Numbered from the stretch's first letter, positions 5,198 to 54,451 are shown. The stretch: 64,000 nt of DNA from a virus (IMGVR_UViG_3300028025_004617:1-64000), one strand, 5' to 3'. Notes: generated by a model from the letters alone, not told the origin. A program made the numbers and translations.

Positions 5198-5703
5198 TAT
5201 ATATTATTATCTCTTTGTGTTATCATTGGTTCCATGGTAGTTTTGTAAGTTTCTTCAAACTTTACTAATTTTTCCATAACGACCAAAGTCTCAGCTTCGA
5301 TTTTTAACATTTCGGCGTTTACATAAACACCACTCTCTTCACCCGCAATAAACACAAAACTCACATCTTCGTCAGTTAGTTTACCATCCAATCTAATTTG
5401 TCTTTCACTTATTGTCATCCCCGGCTCGAATTCAACGATTTGAGAAACTTGTTGTCTAAAATTATCAATTAAACCGGATATTGCAGTCTTTTGTTCATCC
5501 TGTAATCCCATATCAGACTCGTCAGTTGATAACATTTTAACGTCAACATCGTTGATTACGATAACGTCATTATTAATTTCACGTTCTTGTTCGGGTGTTT
5601 GTGGTTCTGCCTGCTCTCTTAGAGTTCTACTTGATGTCTTAGCTTCACTAATATTTCTAAGAGTGTTTAACATCTTCTTGGTAAAATCGTAATCATTTCT
5701 CAT
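5197..5703 (-). CDS. Hypothetical acidic protein
   Basis: 168 aa ORF coupled to neighbours. Confidence 0.65.
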   Translation of the reverse strand: MRNDYDFTKKMLNTLRNISEAKTSSRTLREQAEPQTPEQEREINNDVIVINDVDVKMLSTDESDMGLQDEQKTAISGLIDNFRQQVSQIVEFEPGMTISERQIRLDGKLTDEDVSFVFIAGEESGVYVNAEMLKIEAETLVVMEKLVKFEETYKTTMEPMITQRDNNI

Positions 5704-6307
5704 TTTCGTGTGTATTGTTAAAAAAGACCCTAAAATTAAATGAAGGGTTTATATCTGTATAAATACTTGAAAAGTTGGATTTACATATAATTCCCTTGAA
5801 ATTTGATATATTTTCCAAGTATCCTTGTGATGGTACTGTTTGTTTGAATATTCCATGTTCGTCACATAATTTTTCACATAATTTTGCAACAGATTTCATC
5901 TGGTCTTCTCCGTATCTATCCCAAAAATAGTAGTTTCTCCAATTACGAATATATGGTTCGGACCTATATGGGTCACCAATCCAATTATTAAGGATACCAG
6001 TGATGGTATTTTTAGAAAGCCAACCCAAGTTCTCGATTGCTATTTTAATCATCTTATTGTCAATCTTTGGGTTCCCAAAAGTTTTGGATGATTGGTTGGT
6101 GTCGAATAGTTGATAAACATCTCCTAGCTTAGAAACAACAAAATGGGGTATATCTTCATACATCCCATTTTTACGATATTTTATCATGTTAATAAAATCG
6201 TCAACTCTTCTTTGTGTATCGTATAGTAATATCTGTGTTTTCTTAGATTTTCTTCGACTGACATTTAAATTTTTATTATCAATAGTTTCAATTTCATATA
6301 TTGACAT
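5693..6307 (-). CDS. N-acetylmuramoyl-L-alanine amidase-like protein (Amidase_2 fold), catalytic site appears degenerate
   Basis: PHFVVSKLGDVYQLF, IKIAIENLG, YGEDQMKSVAKLCEKL and TDINP fit the amidase layout; the HHT position reads YDT. Confidence 0.6.
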   Translation of the reverse strand: MSIYEIETIDNKNLNVSRRKSKKTQILLYDTQRRVDDFINMIKYRKNGMYEDIPHFVVSKLGDVYQLFDTNQSSKTFGNPKIDNKMIKIAIENLGWLSKNTITGILNNWIGDPYRSEPYIRNWRNYYFWDRYGEDQMKSVAKLCEKLCDEHGIFKQTVPSQGYLENISNFKGIICKSNFSSIYTDINPSFNFRVFFNNTHENEK

Positions 6308-6317
6308 TGTTCCACAT

Positions 6318-6572
6318 TTAATTAGTGTTATTGTTTACCTCATCATCTGAATTTGGTATAATAACTTTATTATTTTCCAAATCATAAATTACTTGATTTG
6401 GGTTTATCTCATCCTTTTCCAAATATAACTCTTCGTCGTATTGTTTAGATTTTTTTCCTTTATTTGGTCCGTGTCCATAATAATAAGGAATATGTGTACC
6501 TATATTTGAAAACCTGAGGTTACTCGATAATTGGGTTGAATTTAATTCCTGTGTTTGGGGTTCTGTTTCTAC
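6318..6572 (-). other. -1 frame extension (84 codons) of the 6569..8023 gene, reachable through slippery A AAA AAG
   Basis: Stop-free, ATG-less frame VETEPQTQELNS...DDEVNNNTN* begins at the A10 run and ends 10 nt before the next gene. Confidence 0.6.
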
Positions 6573-8023
6573 TTTTTTTTTTCATCATCATTTGATGAAT
6601 TTTGGTCAATCGCTTCGTTAACTACTTTTAACATTTCGTCAATCTCTTTAATTTCTGATTGATAAACAGGTTCGTCAGTTAACTCTTCGGGTGTCGCAAA
6701 TGGTTTAGGTACTTGTTCTTCCCAATATCGTTTTTCCATTTCCTCATCCCAACCATCGTCTTCCATTGATTGTTGATTAAATTCCAAAATGGCTTCCGTT
6801 AAATAATTCTCATCTTGGAGAATTTTTTCCGTTTCAGGGGTTATAGTGGAAAAATTTTCATTTTCTTCTTCAATTGTTGGTTCTTCTTGGAAAATTTTCT
6901 GCATCTCCTCCTCAGTAAAGAATGGTGGTTCGTCTTCTAATCCATCCATTAATGTTCCATCCCAATCGGAGACCTCATCATCTAAATCGTATCTCTCACC
7001 GAATGGTGCAACTGATTCCATTTCTTTCTTAAATGCATCTTCAGCCTCTTTAATTAATTCGTTATCGAATGGTTCATCATATAGTCCTAACTCTTGGTCA
7101 TTCTTCATAATTTCGGCTAACAACTCTCCTCGTTTTTTATATTCTTCTGCTGCAGATTTTAATTTTTCGTTTGGTTCGGTTTGTTTTAATAACGCTTCTT
7201 CTAATATTTTTAAATCATTTTCCGATAAATGTACTCTTGTAGTTTCATCAACAAAGTTTTTTAAATCTTCGGGTGTTGATTCATCATCTTTACCTTTCAT
7301 TACTAATTGGTTGAAGGCGATAATCAAAGCGATAGCCAATGGGTCAAATACAATTACAATTAGAATGATAAAAAATTTAACGACAGTGTTTAATTCAACA
7401 CCAAACGCCTCTGCTACAAATCTAAAACCCCCAACTTCCTTTTCAAGTCCCAAGTTATCGGTCTTAATTTTATTTATCTCGTCATTTTCTTTTGCGTTTT
7501 CTTCTTGTAATAAAGATATCTTGTCGTTAAGTTTTGCAATTTGCTTATCTCTATTATCTATAGAACGAAGTAAACGTGAGTTAACTTTACCACCATCGAT
7601 AATTTTACCTTGGTTAGAATTGAACTCGGTAATTTGTGTCGATAATTGTTTTATTTGAGCTTCGTTCTGTTGAATCTTTGTTGTGTGAATCAATACTTCT
7701 CTATCGACTTGTTGTAATGCAAGATTTTGTTGTTGAAACGCATTTGATAGGTATCCAAAAATGCCTGCTGATGTGATTAACATTAAAATTCCCACAGCAA
7801 ATGATAGATACCATTTATTGAATCCTTTTATCTCATTCCATCTTTGTTTCAAATAAGTCGCAGAAACAAGTTTAGCCAATTCTAAAGAACTTGCCATGAC
7901 CATAACCGCAACCGCAGCACCACTAAATAGTACTCCCAATCCAGTTACTGAAAAATATGCAGCACTACCCGCAATTAAAATTGCCGATAATGCCACTAAG
8001 TATTTTAACCAATTTTTTTCCAT
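6569..8023 (-). CDS. Multi-pass membrane protein with coiled coil and acidic C-terminal tail
   Basis: Three N-terminal hydrophobic helices, a coiled coil, a fourth helix FIILIVIVFDPLAIALIIA, then an acidic tail ending EKKK-TAG. Confidence 0.75.
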   Translation of the reverse strand: MEKNWLKYLVALSAILIAGSAAYFSVTGLGVLFSGAAVAVMVMASSLELAKLVSATYLKQRWNEIKGFNKWYLSFAVGILMLITSAGIFGYLSNAFQQQNLALQQVDREVLIHTTKIQQNEAQIKQLSTQITEFNSNQGKIIDGGKVNSRLLRSIDNRDKQIAKLNDKISLLQEENAKENDEINKIKTDNLGLEKEVGGFRFVAEAFGVELNTVVKFFIILIVIVFDPLAIALIIAFNQLVMKGKDDESTPEDLKNFVDETTRVHLSENDLKILEEALLKQTEPNEKLKSAAEEYKKRGELLAEIMKNDQELGLYDEPFDNELIKEAEDAFKKEMESVAPFGERYDLDDEVSDWDGTLMDGLEDEPPFFTEEEMQKIFQEEPTIEEENENFSTITPETEKILQDENYLTEAILEFNQQSMEDDGWDEEMEKRYWEEQVPKPFATPEELTDEPVYQSEIKEIDEMLKVVNEAIDQNSSNDDEKKK

Positions 8024-8027
8024 AATA

Positions 8028-8837
8028 TTATAAATAATTTAAGAGACTAAAGCTCTCATTTCTTAATTTTTTAATTGCCTTGTCACGTAGTTGTCTAATA
8101 CGTTCTTTAGTACAACCAAACTCTTCACCCAAATCTTCCAAATTAGATTCAATTCCTGTTAGCCCATAATATCTTTCAATGATTACTTTCTCTCTATCAT
8201 CTAACACACTTAACATTGCTGCAACCTTTTTCTTAATCTCTTCCGGTGTGTTCATTAATTCTTCCGGATTCAAAGCGTCTTTGTTTGGGATTACATCAAT
8301 TAGTTGGTCACCTTCGTCATTAATTTGTTTATATAAACCAACACAATAAGGTAAGTTAGAAATTGGTTCGTCTCCTGTAGAAATGAAAAACTTATCTTCA
8401 TTTTTAATTCCTTCTTCCTTTCTTGCTTTTTGTGCCTCTTGGATTAAATTAGATGGAATACGAATTGTTCTTGAATTCTCATTAAGAGATGCCATGATGG
8501 ATTGTCTAATCCACCACACCGCATACGATATAAATCTCAACCCACTCGTTGGGTCAAATCGTTCAGCGGCTTTAATTAAACCAATATTACCTTCCGAAAT
8601 TAAATCAAGTAAATCCATACCTTGATTTTGGAACATCTTTGCTGACGAAATAACAAATCTTAAATTACTAACAACAAGTTCGTTATATAATTTTGTTTTC
8701 TCCTCCTTAGTAATTTTTTTATTCTTTAATAACTCAAAGATTTCATCTTGTCTTTCGTGTGTCATAACAGGAATCTTACGGATGTCCTTTATGTAGCTTT
8801 GGATTTCATCGGGATTTAGAATGATAGACTTCTTCAT
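8028..8837 (-). CDS. Phage-encoded sigma-70 factor, RpoD/SigA-like (Bacteroidota type, no region 1.1)
   Basis: NLRFVIS..DLISEGNIGLIKAAERFD..FISYAVWWIRQSI; region 4 HTH LEDLGEEFGCTKERIRQL. Confidence 0.92.
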   Translation of the reverse strand: MKKSIILNPDEIQSYIKDIRKIPVMTHERQDEIFELLKNKKITKEEKTKLYNELVVSNLRFVISSAKMFQNQGMDLLDLISEGNIGLIKAAERFDPTSGLRFISYAVWWIRQSIMASLNENSRTIRIPSNLIQEAQKARKEEGIKNEDKFFISTGDEPISNLPYCVGLYKQINDEGDQLIDVIPNKDALNPEELMNTPEEIKKKVAAMLSVLDDREKVIIERYYGLTGIESNLEDLGEEFGCTKERIRQLRDKAIKKLRNESFSLLNYL

Positions 8838-9362: not shown

Positions 9363-10004
9363 TTATTTTTTTAATTTAAGTTTCCAATAAACCCCTCCAT
9401 CTACATATGGTGTAAATGTACCACTTGTTCCATCTAACACTCTATTTGCCACACCTACTCCAACATGAAATATCTTATCATCTTTTGTTTTAAAGAGAAT
9501 ACCTGTCCCAATATGTGACACTACGTTCTCTTTATTTAATCCACCATCAAACCCAAAAAATAATTGATTCTTCTTAGGTTCTTTAGTGTATATTGTATCT
9601 TTCACAATCATACGTTTTACATCAGCAATAAATTGTCTATTAACGATACTATTCTTTGATATGGTATCTATAAGTGTAACAGTTCCTTGATTGTTTGGTA
9701 ATGTTAAAACTTCTTTGTGTTGTACCTTAGCAAAATGTACTTTTAGTATTTCCATAGTGTCTATCGTTTGATAAACAGGAACCTCAACTCTTTTTTCAAC
9801 CTCGACTTCGACAGGTACTTCAATTTCCACCTCAACTTCTACTAACGAATCAACCGAAATGGTATCGTGAACAGCGTAAGGTATTGAATCCACCTTTAGT
9901 GTAGTTCTGTTCGGCATAATACCCTTTGGGTTAATAAATTCTACTACCGATATCACTATCAGTAATAGAATTATTGCATTAGGTATATTGATTAGTTTTT
10001 TCAT
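9363..10004 (-). CDS. Membrane-anchored envelope protein, possible lysis accessory
   Basis: N-terminal hydrophobic helix, VEV-rich stalk, C-terminal amphipathic beta strands ending GGVYWKLKLKK. Confidence 0.5.
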   Translation of the reverse strand: MKKLINIPNAIILLLIVISVVEFINPKGIMPNRTTLKVDSIPYAVHDTISVDSLVEVEVEIEVPVEVEVEKRVEVPVYQTIDTMEILKVHFAKVQHKEVLTLPNNQGTVTLIDTISKNSIVNRQFIADVKRMIVKDTIYTKEPKKNQLFFGFDGGLNKENVVSHIGTGILFKTKDDKIFHVGVGVANRVLDGTSGTFTPYVDGGVYWKLKLKK

Positions 10005-10421
10005 CTATTGTAATAAAAGTATCGATGTTGCTATCACACCAACAAATGAACCAATTTTATATAAAAAAGTTTTTCTTCTTTGTCCTTTTAATTCTTTTAA
10101 AAGGCTTTCAGACTTTTGTCTTTCTAAACCAAATTGTTCGTCTTTTTTGGATATGATTAATTCTAAGTTACCAATTTTTTGGTCTTTCAATGAATCTTTT
10201 TGTTTAAATAAACCGATTTGTTCATCTTTTAATGTGATTACTTTATTTAATTCAGTAATTTCAACTTGTGCACCATCTCCTTTGATTAAATCTTTTATAA
10301 CCAACTTAGCAACAGGTACCTTTAAAGCAACTAATGTATCTACGTTAGTCTTTGTAACGGTCTGAGAAAAACTTTTCAAGGTCACTAAAGTTATAATTGT
10401 TAACAGAATCAATTTTTTCAT
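10005..10421 (-). CDS. Signal-peptide coiled-coil protein with C-terminal helix, spanin-like
   Basis: MKKLILLTIITLVTLKSFSQ signal-like start, coiled coil, hydrophobic C-terminus. Confidence 0.45.
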   Translation of the reverse strand: MKKLILLTIITLVTLKSFSQTVTKTNVDTLVALKVPVAKLVIKDLIKGDGAQVEITELNKVITLKDEQIGLFKQKDSLKDQKIGNLELIISKKDEQFGLERQKSESLLKELKGQRRKTFLYKIGSFVGVIATSILLLQ

Positions 10422-10683
10422 GTGTTTGGTTTTTAATTATAGTTATGTTTTTTGTTACGTTATTGATATTGTGGTCAACTACGTCGATTTCTTTATCAAT
10501 TGTAACGATTTGTTCAGAGATTTTTTCGTTTTCAACCTGAACTGAATCTATCTCTTTTTGAATAGATTCGATTTTTGCATTATACCCAGCAACATCCGTT
10601 TTAATACCTTGATTTTGGAAAATGGTATAACCAGCAAGGATTGCGATGATGACAAGTAAGATAGTTTGTTTATTAATCTTCAT
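10345..10683 (-). CDS. N-terminal TM plus coiled-coil protein, i-spanin-like
   Basis: TILLVIIAILAGYTIF then heptad repeats; overlaps the downstream gene by 77 nt. Confidence 0.45.
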   Translation of the reverse strand: MKINKQTILLVIIAILAGYTIFQNQGIKTDVAGYNAKIESIQKEIDSVQVENEKISEQIVTIDKEIDVVDHNINNVTKNITIIKNQTHEKIDSVNNYNFSDLEKFFSDRYKD

Positions 10684-52979: not shown

Positions 52980-53436
52980 TTACAATTGATAATTCAAGTA
53001 TGTGGTTTCCAATTCTTCCGAAGACAAGATGTCAGTTAAGTCTGACAAAATACGCTTCAATTTTGGACGAATATCAACAGTATACCTAACCTTTGGATGG
53101 TAGTAATATGCTGGAAATATTCTTTGAATAAATACATCTTCATTCAACTTAATTTCCAATAAAAAATGTTCTCTGTCCTTCTCGGGGGGCATCTTCCACA
53201 TAGTCCGAAGATAGGAAATAATTTTGATTTTCACACAAATAATCGGAACTTTTTATTTTTAAATCTTCAGAAATATCCTCACAAATATTTTTTACGTAAT
53301 AATGAAGATCCATAGAACGTCTCGCGTCTTCCACATGATCCTTAACGTTAAAGAATCGTTGACAAATGATGTTTCCCTCTAATGTTAATAGGAATTCAAA
53401 TTTTGTGATGTCTTGTTGTTGTTGGTAGTTACTCAT
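52980..53436 (-). CDS. Single hypothetical gene (~151 aa) split by a +1 frameshift at a C6 run
   Basis: ORFs 53149..53436 and 52980..53234 join at GAT GCC CCC C GAG (53184-53189); the halves share a FLL..QR(F/I)F motif. Confidence 0.6.
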
Positions 53437-54451
53437 AACTTTTGATTTTAATTATTTTTTTTTTATTTTTTTCTTTTGTTGTTAATCGAAGGAATGGGTT
53501 TAAGAAATTAACGAATCCATCGTCTGATTTTGGTAATAGACTAAAAATTCCGTCGTCCCTCATCATTCTCATAGCATTTTTGTAAGACCTACCTTCTTGG
53601 TCCAAATTTTCATTTATTAGTAAATCTATGTTTTCTTTAGCCTCATCGGTTAAAAATGGTTCTTCCAAACTTACGATACGATTGTTTATATCAAAAAACT
53701 CCTCACCTAATACACCATATTTGGTAACACCTGTTAGTAAATTTGCAATAAGTTTGTTGTGTTTGTCTTGTTGAAAGATTTCCTCACATTTGTTCTTAAC
53801 TTGTTCAACAGAAATTTGTTCTGTTTTTAGTTCAGGGAAAACAGATAAGAATCTTTTTACTCCCATTCCTCTTATGCCAGCAATGTTGTCTGAAGAGTCA
53901 CCACACATCATCTTAACCAATTTAACATTTTCGATTAAGATTTCCTCGTGGTTATAAACAATTGTATCGTTTTGTTTGTAAAGTTTTCCGTGTGACGGAT
54001 TGTAAATTTGTGTATTTTTTGAAACGAGTTGTGTAAGGTCTCCGTCTGAAGAATAAACTATTTTGTTTTCTTTAGGGGAATTTTGAGTATAGTAAGCGAT
54101 GTTGTCATCTGTCTCACAATACTCATATTCTCCTTGTCTTACAAATAATTCCTCAAGATATTGTTTCACTCTATCTCTTTGGTAAGAGTAAGAACTAATC
54201 TCTTCTTCAGAACGGAGTCGTGATTTTCTGTTTTCTTTGTAAGGTGCGTAAATTTTTTTACGAGTTTGAGAACCTTCCAATCCATCCCAAAATACTACTA
54301 TCTTGTCTAAATTGTACGTCTCAAATGTTCTTCTAAGAGTATTAAGAAAATGATATATTCCTCCAATATGTTCTCCCTTATGAAAGGCGTTTTTAACGCC
54401 ATAGAAACCAATCGTAAGTAAATTGTCACCATCTACTAATAAAACAGACAT
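53429..54451 (-). CDS. 5'-3' exonuclease / flap endonuclease (T4 RNase H, PolI N-domain-like)
   Basis: LLVDG, YKENR, ETDD, DGDLTQL, GDSSDNIAGI. Confidence 0.9.
   Translation of the reverse strand: MSVLLVDGDNLLTIGFYGVKNAFHKGEHIGGIYHFLNTLRRTFETYNLDKIVVFWDGLEGSQTRKKIYAPYKENRKSRLRSEEEISSYSYQRDRVKQYLEELFVRQGEYEYCETDDNIAYYTQNSPKENKIVYSSDGDLTQLVSKNTQIYNPSHGKLYKQNDTIVYNHEEILIENVKLVKMMCGDSSDNIAGIRGMGVKRFLSVFPELKTEQISVEQVKNKCEEIFQQDKHNKLIANLLTGVTKYGVLGEEFFDINNRIVSLEEPFLTDEAKENIDLLINENLDQEGRSYKNAMRMMRDDGIFSLLPKSDDGFVNFLNPFLRLTTKEKNKKKIIKIKSYE

What the first reader, a model, noticed from the sequence alone, without database searches (positions are those of the whole stretch)
6318..6583. Candidate programmed -1 frameshift extending a membrane protein by 84 aa
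Seen: the 484 aa gene ends GAA AAA AAA AAG TAG, so the A AAA AAG heptamer inside an A10 run sits directly before the stop. The -1 frame is open for 84 codons (VETEPQTQELNSTQ...YDEELYLEKDEINPNQVIYDLENNKVIIPNSDDEVNNNTN*), has no ATG, and fills the otherwise empty ~260 nt gap to the amidase-like gene. Established: A AAA AAG is the dnaX/IS3-family slippery sequence, and long A runs also allow transcriptional slippage. Inference: two isoforms made at a fixed ratio in a gene that is not a recognisable tail chaperone. No strong downstream stimulatory hairpin was seen.
Basis: partly seen in the sequence, partly recalled or inferred. Interest (0 to 1): 0.75.

Follow-up and report, generated by a model that had tools for sequence, protein, structure and literature searches.

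The report
Conserved poly-A recoding site in phage gene
A run of ten A's at the end of a jumbo-phage membrane-protein gene is a real, widely conserved recoding signal: a shift into the -1 frame adds a conserved 84-residue tail, most likely because RNA polymerase slips on the run, so one gene makes a short and a long protein.

Summary
The minus-strand gene 6569-8023 ends GAA AAA AAA AAG TAG. The -1 frame is open for 84 codons up to 10 nt before the amidase gene.

Comparison with about 200 related loci shows a conserved recoding site, not an error.
- About 48 related contigs carry the same tail, which ends in an NPNQVIYDLEN-type beta-hairpin motif. In all of them it lies in the -1 frame behind an A10 or A11 run.
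- The frame overlap is only 13-28 nt and always contains the run.
- The tail is under purifying selection: pN/pS is 0.31 in its own frame and about 1 in the other two frames.
- It has no conserved start codon.
- It is fused in frame in sister lineages: P0033, P0121-P0135, L208 and L218.

The base after the run varies (G, C, T or A), so the run is the conserved element, not A AAA AAG.

Most relatives have an RNA hairpin that ends at the 5' edge of the run, with compensatory changes. In the window itself this hairpin is weak. No downstream structure is conserved. The two in-frame lineages with DNA available keep both hairpin and A10.

A second clade of the family evolved an A9G site in front of a different C-terminal domain.

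Best reading: programmed slippage, mainly transcriptional and possibly helped by ribosomal -1 shifting, that yields two isoforms.

The parts
6569..8023 (-). Zero-frame ORF of 484 aa (P0001). It has three N-terminal TM segments, a ~115-aa coiled coil, a fourth TM, then an acidic low-complexity tail ending D-D-E-K-K-K, followed by stop TAG at 6571-6569.
   Evidence: The N-terminal 250 aa are conserved in thousands of phage proteins and in jumbo phages XacN1, RsoM2USA, Xoo-sp13, immuto and Mosig. There is a weak TacA1/DUF1778-like stretch at aa 255-296.
6573..6582 (-). A10 run (T10 on the + strand), the shift site. In the zero frame it reads G-AA AAA AAA AA-G.
   Evidence: An A10 or A11 run in the same codon phase occurs in all 30 distinct type-A recoded junctions. 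The two in-frame lineages with DNA available also keep it.
6582..6584 (-). TGA stop in the -1 frame immediately 5' of the run. Together with the zero-frame TAG it limits the possible shift window to 13 nt.
6585..6598 (-). Weak 5-bp hairpin (-4.2 kcal/mol) that ends 2 nt before the run. It is the degenerate local copy of a 5-8 bp hairpin that abuts the run in relatives.
   Evidence: for the window (z -0.88, against L087 at -7.8 kcal/mol, z -2.96). for the relatives.
6318..6572 (-). -1-frame extension of 84 codons plus a TAA stop. It is largely disordered.
   Evidence: Homologous -1-frame ORFs occur in 37 loci and 11 further contigs. Pooled pN/pS is 0.31 against 1.13 and 0.98 in the other frames. 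The AF2 model has mean pLDDT 63.
6339..6428 (-). Conserved C-terminal motif of the extension (residues 49-78). It includes a predicted beta hairpin at residues 62-64 and 69-71.
   Evidence: Alignments (E52, P58, Y63 and D64 are nearly invariant). AF2 pLDDT is about 89 over residues 61-70.
5693..6307 (-). Downstream Amidase_2 (endolysin-like) gene. The extension ORF ends 10 nt before its start.
   Evidence: The order sigma factor, membrane gene, extension, amidase is kept in 37 of 44 type-A loci. The extension ends 8-16 nt before the amidase start or overlaps it by 13-34 nt.
8028..8837 (-). Upstream phage sigma-70-family factor gene, 4 nt from the membrane gene.

Best explanation
The A10 run is a programmed recoding site. 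Most expression gives the 484-aa protein, which stops right after the run. A fraction of expression events move into the -1 frame within the run. They yield a 568-aa isoform that carries a disordered linker and a conserved beta-hairpin motif at its C-terminus. The most likely main mechanism is transcriptional slippage. While the 9-10 bp RNA-DNA hybrid is entirely rA:dT, the bacterial RNA polymerase (here probably directed by the phage sigma factor encoded next door) realigns the nascent RNA and adds one A (or drops two). Ordinary translation of those mRNAs then reads through into the extension. In most relatives a nascent-RNA hairpin forms exactly at the upstream edge of the hybrid. This is the geometry of an intrinsic terminator and of the one known hairpin-stimulated slippage site, and it probably tunes the slippage rate. 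Ribosomal -1 slippage on A AAA AAA/G next to the stop codon would give the identical protein and may contribute. What is shown: the site, its conservation, the coding nature of the -1 frame, its fusion in relatives, and the hairpin with covariation. What is inferred: that slippage occurs, at which level it occurs, the isoform ratio, and the function of the tail.
For: (1) The -1-frame tail is conserved behind A10/A11 in 37 loci plus 11 more contigs. About 115 of the 120 best protein clusters end E-K-K-K/N with a stop 0-1 residue later.
(2) The overlap window is 13-28 nt and always contains the run.
(3) pN/pS is 0.31 in the tail's frame and about 1 in the other frames. There is no conserved start codon.
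(4) The tail is fused in frame in P0033 (96.9% identical to the -1-state P0035), in P0121-P0135 and in L208, L221 and L218.
(5) The 3' base after the run varies, but a run of 9 or more A's is invariant. That is longer than the 7 nt a ribosomal shift needs and matches the polymerase hybrid length. Other long homopolymers are depleted in the genome.
(6) A hairpin ends 0-1 nt 5' of the run in 24 of 29 distinct sites, each at an empirical percentile of 0.05 or lower against other windows of the same gene. On a fixed 7-bp register, 77% of cells pair against 68.6 +/- 1.6 in shuffles, with 17 double-sided changes against 6.1 +/- 1.9 (0 of 500 shuffles). Synonymous-codon resampling gives a combined p of 3e-10, but the sequences are phylogenetically related and not independent.
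(7) In-frame lineages L208 and L218 keep both hairpin and A10.
(8) No conserved downstream structure was found and there is no Rfam match.
(9) Precedents exist. The C. rodentium tssM1 A11 run before a stop gives mRNAs with 10-15 A's and two length variants (PMC4256274). Thermus dnaX has an A9 site, and the Roseiflexus IS has a hairpin 5'-adjacent to its slippage motif (PMC5009743).
Against: No RNA or protein data exist, so slippage itself is not shown. The window's own hairpin is weak (5 bp, -4.2 kcal/mol, z -0.88, ending 2 nt before the run). The known hairpin-stimulated case produces a 1-nt deletion, whereas this site needs +1 or -2 nt. The window's site is also a perfect in-phase A AAA AAG followed directly by a stop codon, a classic ribosomal shift context. 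The hairpin arms are partly dictated by a recurrent T-S...D-D/E peptide, and only 11 of 30 sites reach p<=0.05 under synonymous resampling. The type-B A9G sites have no hairpin.
Confidence: 0.55

Rival explanations
1. Purely ribosomal programmed -1 frameshifting. Tandem tRNA-Lys slippage on A AAA AAA/G, or P-site slippage while the adjacent stop codon waits in the A site, moves a fixed fraction of ribosomes into the -1 frame.
For: An in-phase A AAA AAA heptamer is present in every site. In the window it is A AAA AAG followed directly by TAG. A zero-frame stop follows the run within 0-3 codons in all 40 distinct junctions, which fits the 'shifty stop' context. The codon phase of the run is fixed in type A. 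The protein product would be identical to that of slippage.
Against: The Z base is not conserved (G, C, T or A). No conserved downstream structure or upstream SD-like element was found. The run is conserved at 9 or more A's although 7 would suffice. The conserved hairpin lies 0-1 nt 5' of the run, so it is inside the ribosome's mRNA channel and unfolded while the run is decoded. Upstream hairpins are known as attenuators of -1 shifting, not stimulators (my own recollection of the literature, not checked here). In-frame lineages keep the run and hairpin.
Confidence: 0.27
2. DNA-level phase variation. The tract changes length during phage replication, and only the rare in-frame genomes make the long protein.
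For: Tract-length variants exist among near-identical sequences. L011 (A10, +1 state) stands against L009/L010 (A11). P0115 is 99.6-99.8% identical to P0112 and P0099. P0033 (in frame) is 96.9% identical to P0035. P0034 and P0036 end as an A12 tract would read.
Against: About 95% of clusters and loci sit in the same -1 state. Variants are rare, and they are as often in the useless +1 state as in frame. Strong purifying selection on the tail is hard to maintain if only 1-3% of genomes express it.
Confidence: 0.06
3. The extension is a separate small gene, made by non-canonical initiation or by termination-reinitiation after the TAG, and is not fused to the membrane protein.
For: The extension ORF is compact and ends close to the amidase start in all loci.
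Against: No ATG, GTG or TTG is conserved anywhere before the motif. The -1 frame is closed by a stop right at the run in most loci. Relatives encode the same region as one continuous protein.
Confidence: 0.04
4. Assembly or sequencing error at a homopolymer, or a recently broken pseudogene. The true gene would be one continuous ORF, or the tail would be decaying.
For: Homopolymers are error-prone. One close relative (P0033) is in frame.
Against: The same -1 state appears in about 50 independent assemblies from JGI, ENA, NCBI and Logan sources. The identical 484-aa protein occurs on at least 13 contigs. Other genes with A7-A8 runs in the genome are intact. pN/pS of 0.31 rules out decay.
Confidence: 0.03

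Closest known systems
Citrobacter rodentium / Yersinia pseudotuberculosis tssM transcriptional frameshifting (PMC4256274)
   Same: A poly-A run (A11) sits directly before a premature stop in a membrane-protein gene. The C-terminal domain lies in another frame. Slippage gives a short and a full-length variant, and both are needed at a set ratio. No ribosomal stimulators are present.
   Different: That case is a bacterial T6SS gene, not a phage gene. No 5' hairpin has been described for it. There it is a lineage-specific interruption of an otherwise in-frame gene, whereas here the out-of-frame state dominates a large, deeply diverged clade.
Thermus thermophilus dnaX (A9) and Shigella spa13/mxiE slippage sites (review PMC5009743)
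   Same: Homopolymer runs of 9 or more act as programmed transcriptional slippage sites that yield two products. In spa13 the extension reaches the start of the next gene and affects its expression, which resembles the extension-amidase arrangement here.
   Different: The genes are different. In dnaX the shifted product is the shorter one. That reversed arrangement is seen here only in the in-frame lineages (L208, L218, L116).
Roseiflexus IS630-family hairpin-stimulated slippage (Penno et al. 2015, as described in PMC5009743)
   Same: A nascent-RNA stem-loop lies immediately 5' of the slippage motif, in terminator-like geometry.
   Different: The motif there is heteropolymeric T5C5 and the event is a specific 1-nt deletion. 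Here the motif is A10 and the productive change is +1 or -2 nt. The stems here are also weaker (A/U-rich, 5-8 bp).
E. coli dnaX / IS3-family -1 programmed ribosomal frameshifting at A AAA AAG
   Same: The window has the same heptamer in the correct phase, and the shift is into the -1 frame.
   Different: No downstream hairpin or pseudoknot and no upstream SD-like stimulator are present. The G of the heptamer is not conserved among homologues.
Phage tail assembly chaperone G/GT frameshift
   Same: A phage gene makes two C-terminally different products at a fixed ratio through a -1 shift.
   Different: The gene is not between tail tube and tape measure. Its product is a 4-TM membrane protein next to a sigma factor gene and an amidase gene.

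Membership tests
Programmed transcriptional slippage at a homopolymer (dnaX-Thermus / tssM type) | A or T run of about 9 or more inside the coding sequence | tested here: met
   A10 in the window. A9-A11 in all 40 distinct recoded junctions.
Programmed transcriptional slippage at a homopolymer (dnaX-Thermus / tssM type) | Functional coding sequence continues in another frame directly behind the run and is conserved | tested here: met
   The -1-frame tail is conserved, pN/pS is 0.31, and it is in frame in relatives.
Programmed transcriptional slippage at a homopolymer (dnaX-Thermus / tssM type) | mRNA population heterogeneous in run length while the DNA is uniform | not testable with these tools
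   No reads or transcriptomes are available.
Hairpin-stimulated transcriptional slippage (Roseiflexus IS type) | Stable nascent-RNA stem-loop immediately 5' of the slippage motif | tested here: inconclusive
   Met in 24 of 29 relatives, with covariation. The window's own hairpin is weak and ends 2 nt before the run.
Hairpin-stimulated transcriptional slippage (Roseiflexus IS type) | Heteropolymeric motif with a unidirectional 1-nt deletion as the productive event | tested here: not met
   The motif is homopolymeric A10. A 1-nt deletion gives only a 16-codon dead-end frame in the window. The productive change is +1 or -2 nt.
-1 programmed ribosomal frameshifting (dnaX / IS3 type) | In-phase X XXY YYZ slippery heptamer | tested here: met
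   A AAA AAG in the window. A AAA AAA is in phase in all sites.
-1 programmed ribosomal frameshifting (dnaX / IS3 type) | Stimulatory element: a 3' hairpin or pseudoknot 5-9 nt downstream and/or a 5' SD-like sequence | tested here: not met
   Downstream 60-nt folds are not better than shuffles in most loci and share no structure. There is no Rfam frameshift element and no conserved SD-like motif upstream (alignment A2).
-1 programmed ribosomal frameshifting (dnaX / IS3 type) | Trans-frame junction peptide made from unaltered mRNA | not testable with these tools
   This needs mass spectrometry plus RNA sequencing. The peptide is identical under both mechanisms.
Phase-variable contingency locus | Frequent tract-length polymorphism, with in-frame ON and out-of-frame OFF states both common | tested here: not met
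   Roughly 95% of sequences are in the -1 state. A few are +1 and a few are in frame.
Phage tail assembly chaperone frameshift (G/GT) | Position between the tail tube and tape measure genes, with chaperone family domains | tested here: not met
   The neighbours are a sigma factor and Amidase_2. The protein has four TM segments.

The most novel reading that the evidence does not exclude
A hairpin-plus-A10 cassette acts as a tunable, polymerase-level isoform switch conserved across a large clade of uncultivated freshwater jumbo phages. It works from either genomic configuration. With the tail in the -1 frame, slippage makes the long form. With the tail in frame, slippage makes the short form that stops at once. 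The same event also delivers ribosomes to the start of the adjacent endolysin-like amidase gene, which would link the isoform ratio of a lysis-associated membrane protein to endolysin translation. This would be the first hairpin-assisted slippage on a homopolymer, and the first programmed transcriptional slippage described for a phage envelope or lysis function.
Probability: 0.25. Interest if true: 0.8.

Novelty: new variant of a known kind. Interest (0 to 1): 0.62.

Why it matters
Programmed slippage on homopolymers is known from a handful of bacterial genes and IS elements. In phages, recoding is mainly known from tail chaperones.

This case adds four things:
- The recoding site has been kept for a long evolutionary time in a phage-only membrane-protein family with thousands of members.
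- It arose at least twice in that family, as A10/A11 in front of one tail module and A9G in front of another.
- It flips repeatedly between out-of-frame and in-frame layouts without losing the run.
- In one clade it carries a covarying 5' hairpin of the kind so far linked to slippage in only one IS element.

Natural sequence variation therefore offers a ready-made test set for how nascent-RNA structure affects polymerase slippage.

There is also a practical point. Gene callers truncate this protein in nearly every assembly and leave a 260-nt 'empty' gap. Annotation pipelines for large phages should join the two frames.

Tried and rejected
The tract lengths I give for those proteins (A11, A12) are inferred from their C-terminal residues only.
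- A viral-contig scan with in-frame protein P0134 returned only N-terminal relatives.
- A degenerate DNA pattern for the tail motif did recover three in-frame loci.
- An exact DNA pattern for the window's junction found only the two already known contigs.
- Pfam and PHROGs give nothing for the extension. Rfam gives nothing. The terminator scan finds nothing at the site, and there are no tRNAs in the window.
- The AF2 model of the tail is mostly low confidence, so no fold search was run on it.
- The ESM Atlas and PDB sequence searches identify only phage hypothetical proteins and a weak DUF1778 stretch.
- Cultured relatives (Flavobacterium phage immuto, Pelagibacter phage Mosig) lack the run and the tail, so no cultured model system was found.
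- A second A10 in the genome (53455-53464) was checked and rejected as a recoding site, because a shift there only alters the last few residues.
- The careful maximum-likelihood tree did not finish. The quick tree was used, and mosaicism of the gene limits its value.

Full report
**The observation.** The window belongs to a 103,958-bp IMG/VR virus record estimated at 33% complete, so the phage is probably about 300 kb. Genes around the finding all lie on the minus strand. ORF 6569..8023(-) encodes a 484-aa protein that ends D-D-E-K-K-K, and the DNA reads GAA AAA AAA AAG TAG. The run is exactly A10.

The -1 frame reads K-K-K-V-E-T-E-P... for 84 further codons and stops at 6320-6318, 10 nt before the ATG of an Amidase_2 gene. 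That frame carries a TGA overlapping the first A of the run. The two frames therefore overlap by only 13 nt, essentially the run itself.

**What the protein is.** It has three N-terminal TM segments, a coiled coil of about 115 aa, a fourth TM segment and a long acidic tail.
- The first 250 residues are conserved in more than 6,000 database proteins, all of them phage hypothetical proteins.
- The same region is found in jumbo and large phages XacN1, RsoM2USA, Xoo-sp13, immuto and Mosig.
- A weak TacA1/DUF1778-like stretch follows TM4.

No function is known for the family. In the window the gene lies next to an amidase. In Pelagibacter phage Mosig the homologue lies next to a putative glucosaminidase. 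This hints at an envelope or lysis role but does not show one. An earlier scan note describes a spanin-like cassette at 9363-10683. I did not test that note.

**Comparative test of the frameshift.** I collected 84 IMG/VR loci, 80 metagenome loci and 18 more through a degenerate DNA pattern for the tail motif.
- In 37 loci, and in 11 further contigs, the homologue of the window's tail lies in the -1 frame behind an A10 run (most loci) or an A11 run.
- The zero-frame stop follows the run within 0-3 codons. The frame overlap is 13-28 nt and always holds the run.
- Of the 120 best protein clusters, about 115 end E-K-K-K/N with a stop 0-1 residue later. The identical 484-aa protein was called on at least 13 contigs from independent assemblies.
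- The tail evolves as coding sequence. Pooled pN/pS over 19 pairs is 0.31 in its own frame and 1.13 and 0.98 in the other two.
- No start codon is conserved in the tail.
- The order sigma factor, membrane gene, tail, amidase is kept in 37 of 44 loci. The tail ORF always reaches the amidase start, ending 8-16 nt before it or overlapping it by 13-34 nt.

**The tail belongs to the same protein.**
- P0033 (609 aa) carries the tail in frame and is 96.9% identical to P0035, which stops at the run.
- Fifteen further in-frame fusions exist.
- Three in-frame loci could be read as DNA: L208, L221 and L218.

A second clade of the family has a different C-terminal module, with DxDGDG repeats and a W-I-N-D-Q-N-A motif.
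- About 100 members of that clade encode the module in frame without any run.
- Eleven loci encode it in the -1 frame behind TTA AAA AAA AAG.
- The in-frame locus L116 reads TTG AAA AAA AAA GTC at the same place. It is nearly identical to the recoded L036 and L043 in its N-terminal domain. The two layouts differ by a single base next to an A9 run that both keep.

A quick tree of the N-terminal domain interleaves in-frame and recoded sequences, and supported branches force at least four switches. The gene is mosaic and the careful tree did not finish, so this count is only indicative.

**What is conserved at the site.** The base after the run is G, C, T or A, so A AAA AAG is not the conserved element. 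A run of 9 or more A's is invariant. Long homopolymers are otherwise avoided in this genome: 5 runs of 9 or more against 17.7 +/- 3.6 expected. The only other A10 lies in the last 12 codons of a FEN-like gene, where a shift is harmless. No downstream structure is shared, and there is no Rfam element or terminator at the site.

A hairpin sits on the 5' side and ends 0-1 nt before the run.
- It occurs in 24 of 29 distinct type-A sites, each at an empirical percentile of 0.05 or lower against other windows of the same gene.
- The stems differ in sequence but keep pairing, for example CATCATC/GATGATG, CATCACC/GGTGATG, CATCTTCA/TGAAGATG and TTCAGG/CCTGAA.
- On a fixed 7-bp register, 77% of cells pair against 68.6 +/- 1.6 in shuffles. 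There are 17 double-sided changes against 6.1 +/- 1.9, with none of 500 shuffles reaching the observed values.
- Resampling synonymous codons shows that codon choice adds to what the peptide already imposes (11 of 30 sites at p<=0.05).

These tests do not correct for relatedness, and the structure was derived from the same sequences. The window's own copy is the weakest: a 6-nt deletion relative to L087 leaves a 5-bp stem of -4.2 kcal/mol that ends 2 nt before the run. The in-frame lineages L208 and L218 keep both the 7-bp hairpin and A10. In them a 1-nt deletion gives E-K-K-I and an immediate stop. The type-B A9G sites have no hairpin.

**Mechanism.** An inserted A in the mRNA and a -1 slip of the ribosome give the same protein, so sequence alone cannot decide between them. 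I favour transcriptional slippage as the main route for five reasons:
- The conserved feature is a run as long as the RNA-DNA hybrid, not a heptamer.
- Ribosomal stimulators are absent.
- The hairpin sits where it can act on the polymerase, at the upstream edge of an all-rA:dT hybrid. That position is inside the ribosome's mRNA channel while the run is decoded. This point rests on established knowledge of the two footprints, not on a test here.
- The run and hairpin persist in in-frame lineages.
- Close precedents exist. The tssM1 A11 run gives mRNAs with 10-15 A's and two required length variants (PMC4256274). Thermus dnaX has an A9 site, and the Roseiflexus IS has a hairpin 5'-adjacent to its slippage motif (PMC5009743).

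Three points count against this reading. The known hairpin case yields a 1-nt deletion, while this site needs +1 or -2 nt. The window's hairpin is weak. And A AAA AAG followed directly by a stop is a good ribosomal shift context.

The other alternatives are weaker.
- DNA-level phase variation does occur: L011 against L009, and P0115, P0033 and P0034/P0036. But variants are rare and are as often in the useless +1 state as in frame.
- Assembly error is contradicted by the number of independent assemblies that show the -1 state.
- Pseudogene decay is contradicted by the selection signal in the tail.
- A separate gene is contradicted by the missing start codon and by the in-frame fusions.

**The tail itself.** The AF2 model built on 27 sequences is disordered except for a confident beta hairpin at V-I-Y-D-L-E-N-N-K-V-I-I (pLDDT about 89). 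Many relatives add a basic R-rich end that overlaps the amidase start. The tail is most simply a short interaction motif on a flexible tether. Because the tail ORF always delivers ribosomes to the amidase start, an effect on amidase translation is also possible, as for Shigella spa13 and spa32 (PMC5009743). That idea is speculation.

**Verdict.** This is a real, conserved recoding site. It is a new variant of a known kind, namely homopolymer slippage that yields two length variants. The new features are the phage membrane-protein family, a covarying 5' hairpin, two independent origins, and repeated flips between the out-of-frame and in-frame layouts. I found no cultured phage that carries it and no prior description of it in the literature searched.

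Noticed in passing
window 53455-53464 (minus strand A10), gene 53429-54451(-): This is the only other 10-base homopolymer in the 104-kb genome. It lies in the last 12 codons of a 340-aa FEN/5'-3' exonuclease-like gene, about 20 nt before the next gene's overlapping ATG. A shift there only changes the last few residues, so it is not a recoding site.
   Followed up: yes
whole genome G000 (window = 1-64000): A/T homopolymers of 9 or more are strongly depleted: 5 observed against 17.7 +/- 3.6 expected from a first-order Markov model at 32.7% GC. This suggests selection against slippage-prone runs.
   Followed up: partly
window 7136-7261 (aa 255-296 of the 484-aa protein): The stretch just after the fourth TM segment matches Pfam TacA1/DUF1778, the antitoxin region that binds GNAT toxins. 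It scores above the gathering score in the window protein (22.1 bits) and in several relatives (up to 28 bits), and it matches PDB DUF1778 chains at E of about 2e-3. Whether a phage membrane protein mimics an antitoxin is untested.
   Followed up: partly
L036, L037, L041-L044, L052, L053, L099, L127, L142 (related loci): A second clade of the family has its own recoding site, TTA AAA AAA AAG, with no hairpin. It sits in front of a different C-terminal module with DxDGDG calcium-binding-like repeats. About 100 relatives encode that module in frame. L116 is the in-frame twin and keeps the A9 run.
   Followed up: yes
L224 (Pelagibacter phage Mosig, MT647606.1) and window 5693-6307: Family members sit next to peptidoglycan hydrolase genes in unrelated phages: Amidase_2 here and a putative glucosaminidase in Mosig. 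This hints at a lysis-associated role for the membrane protein family.
   Followed up: no
L027, L010, L005 versus L097, L093 (related loci): The N-terminal-domain tree places L027 with L010 and L005, yet its linker and tail are nearly identical to those of L097 and L093. The gene appears mosaic, with recombination between its N- and C-terminal halves.
   Followed up: no
L208, L218, P0121-P0135 (related sequences): In-frame lineages carry long Pro-Thr-rich linkers (TPTPTPEPT repeats) in the cytoplasmic or acidic tail that the window's lineage lacks.
   Followed up: no
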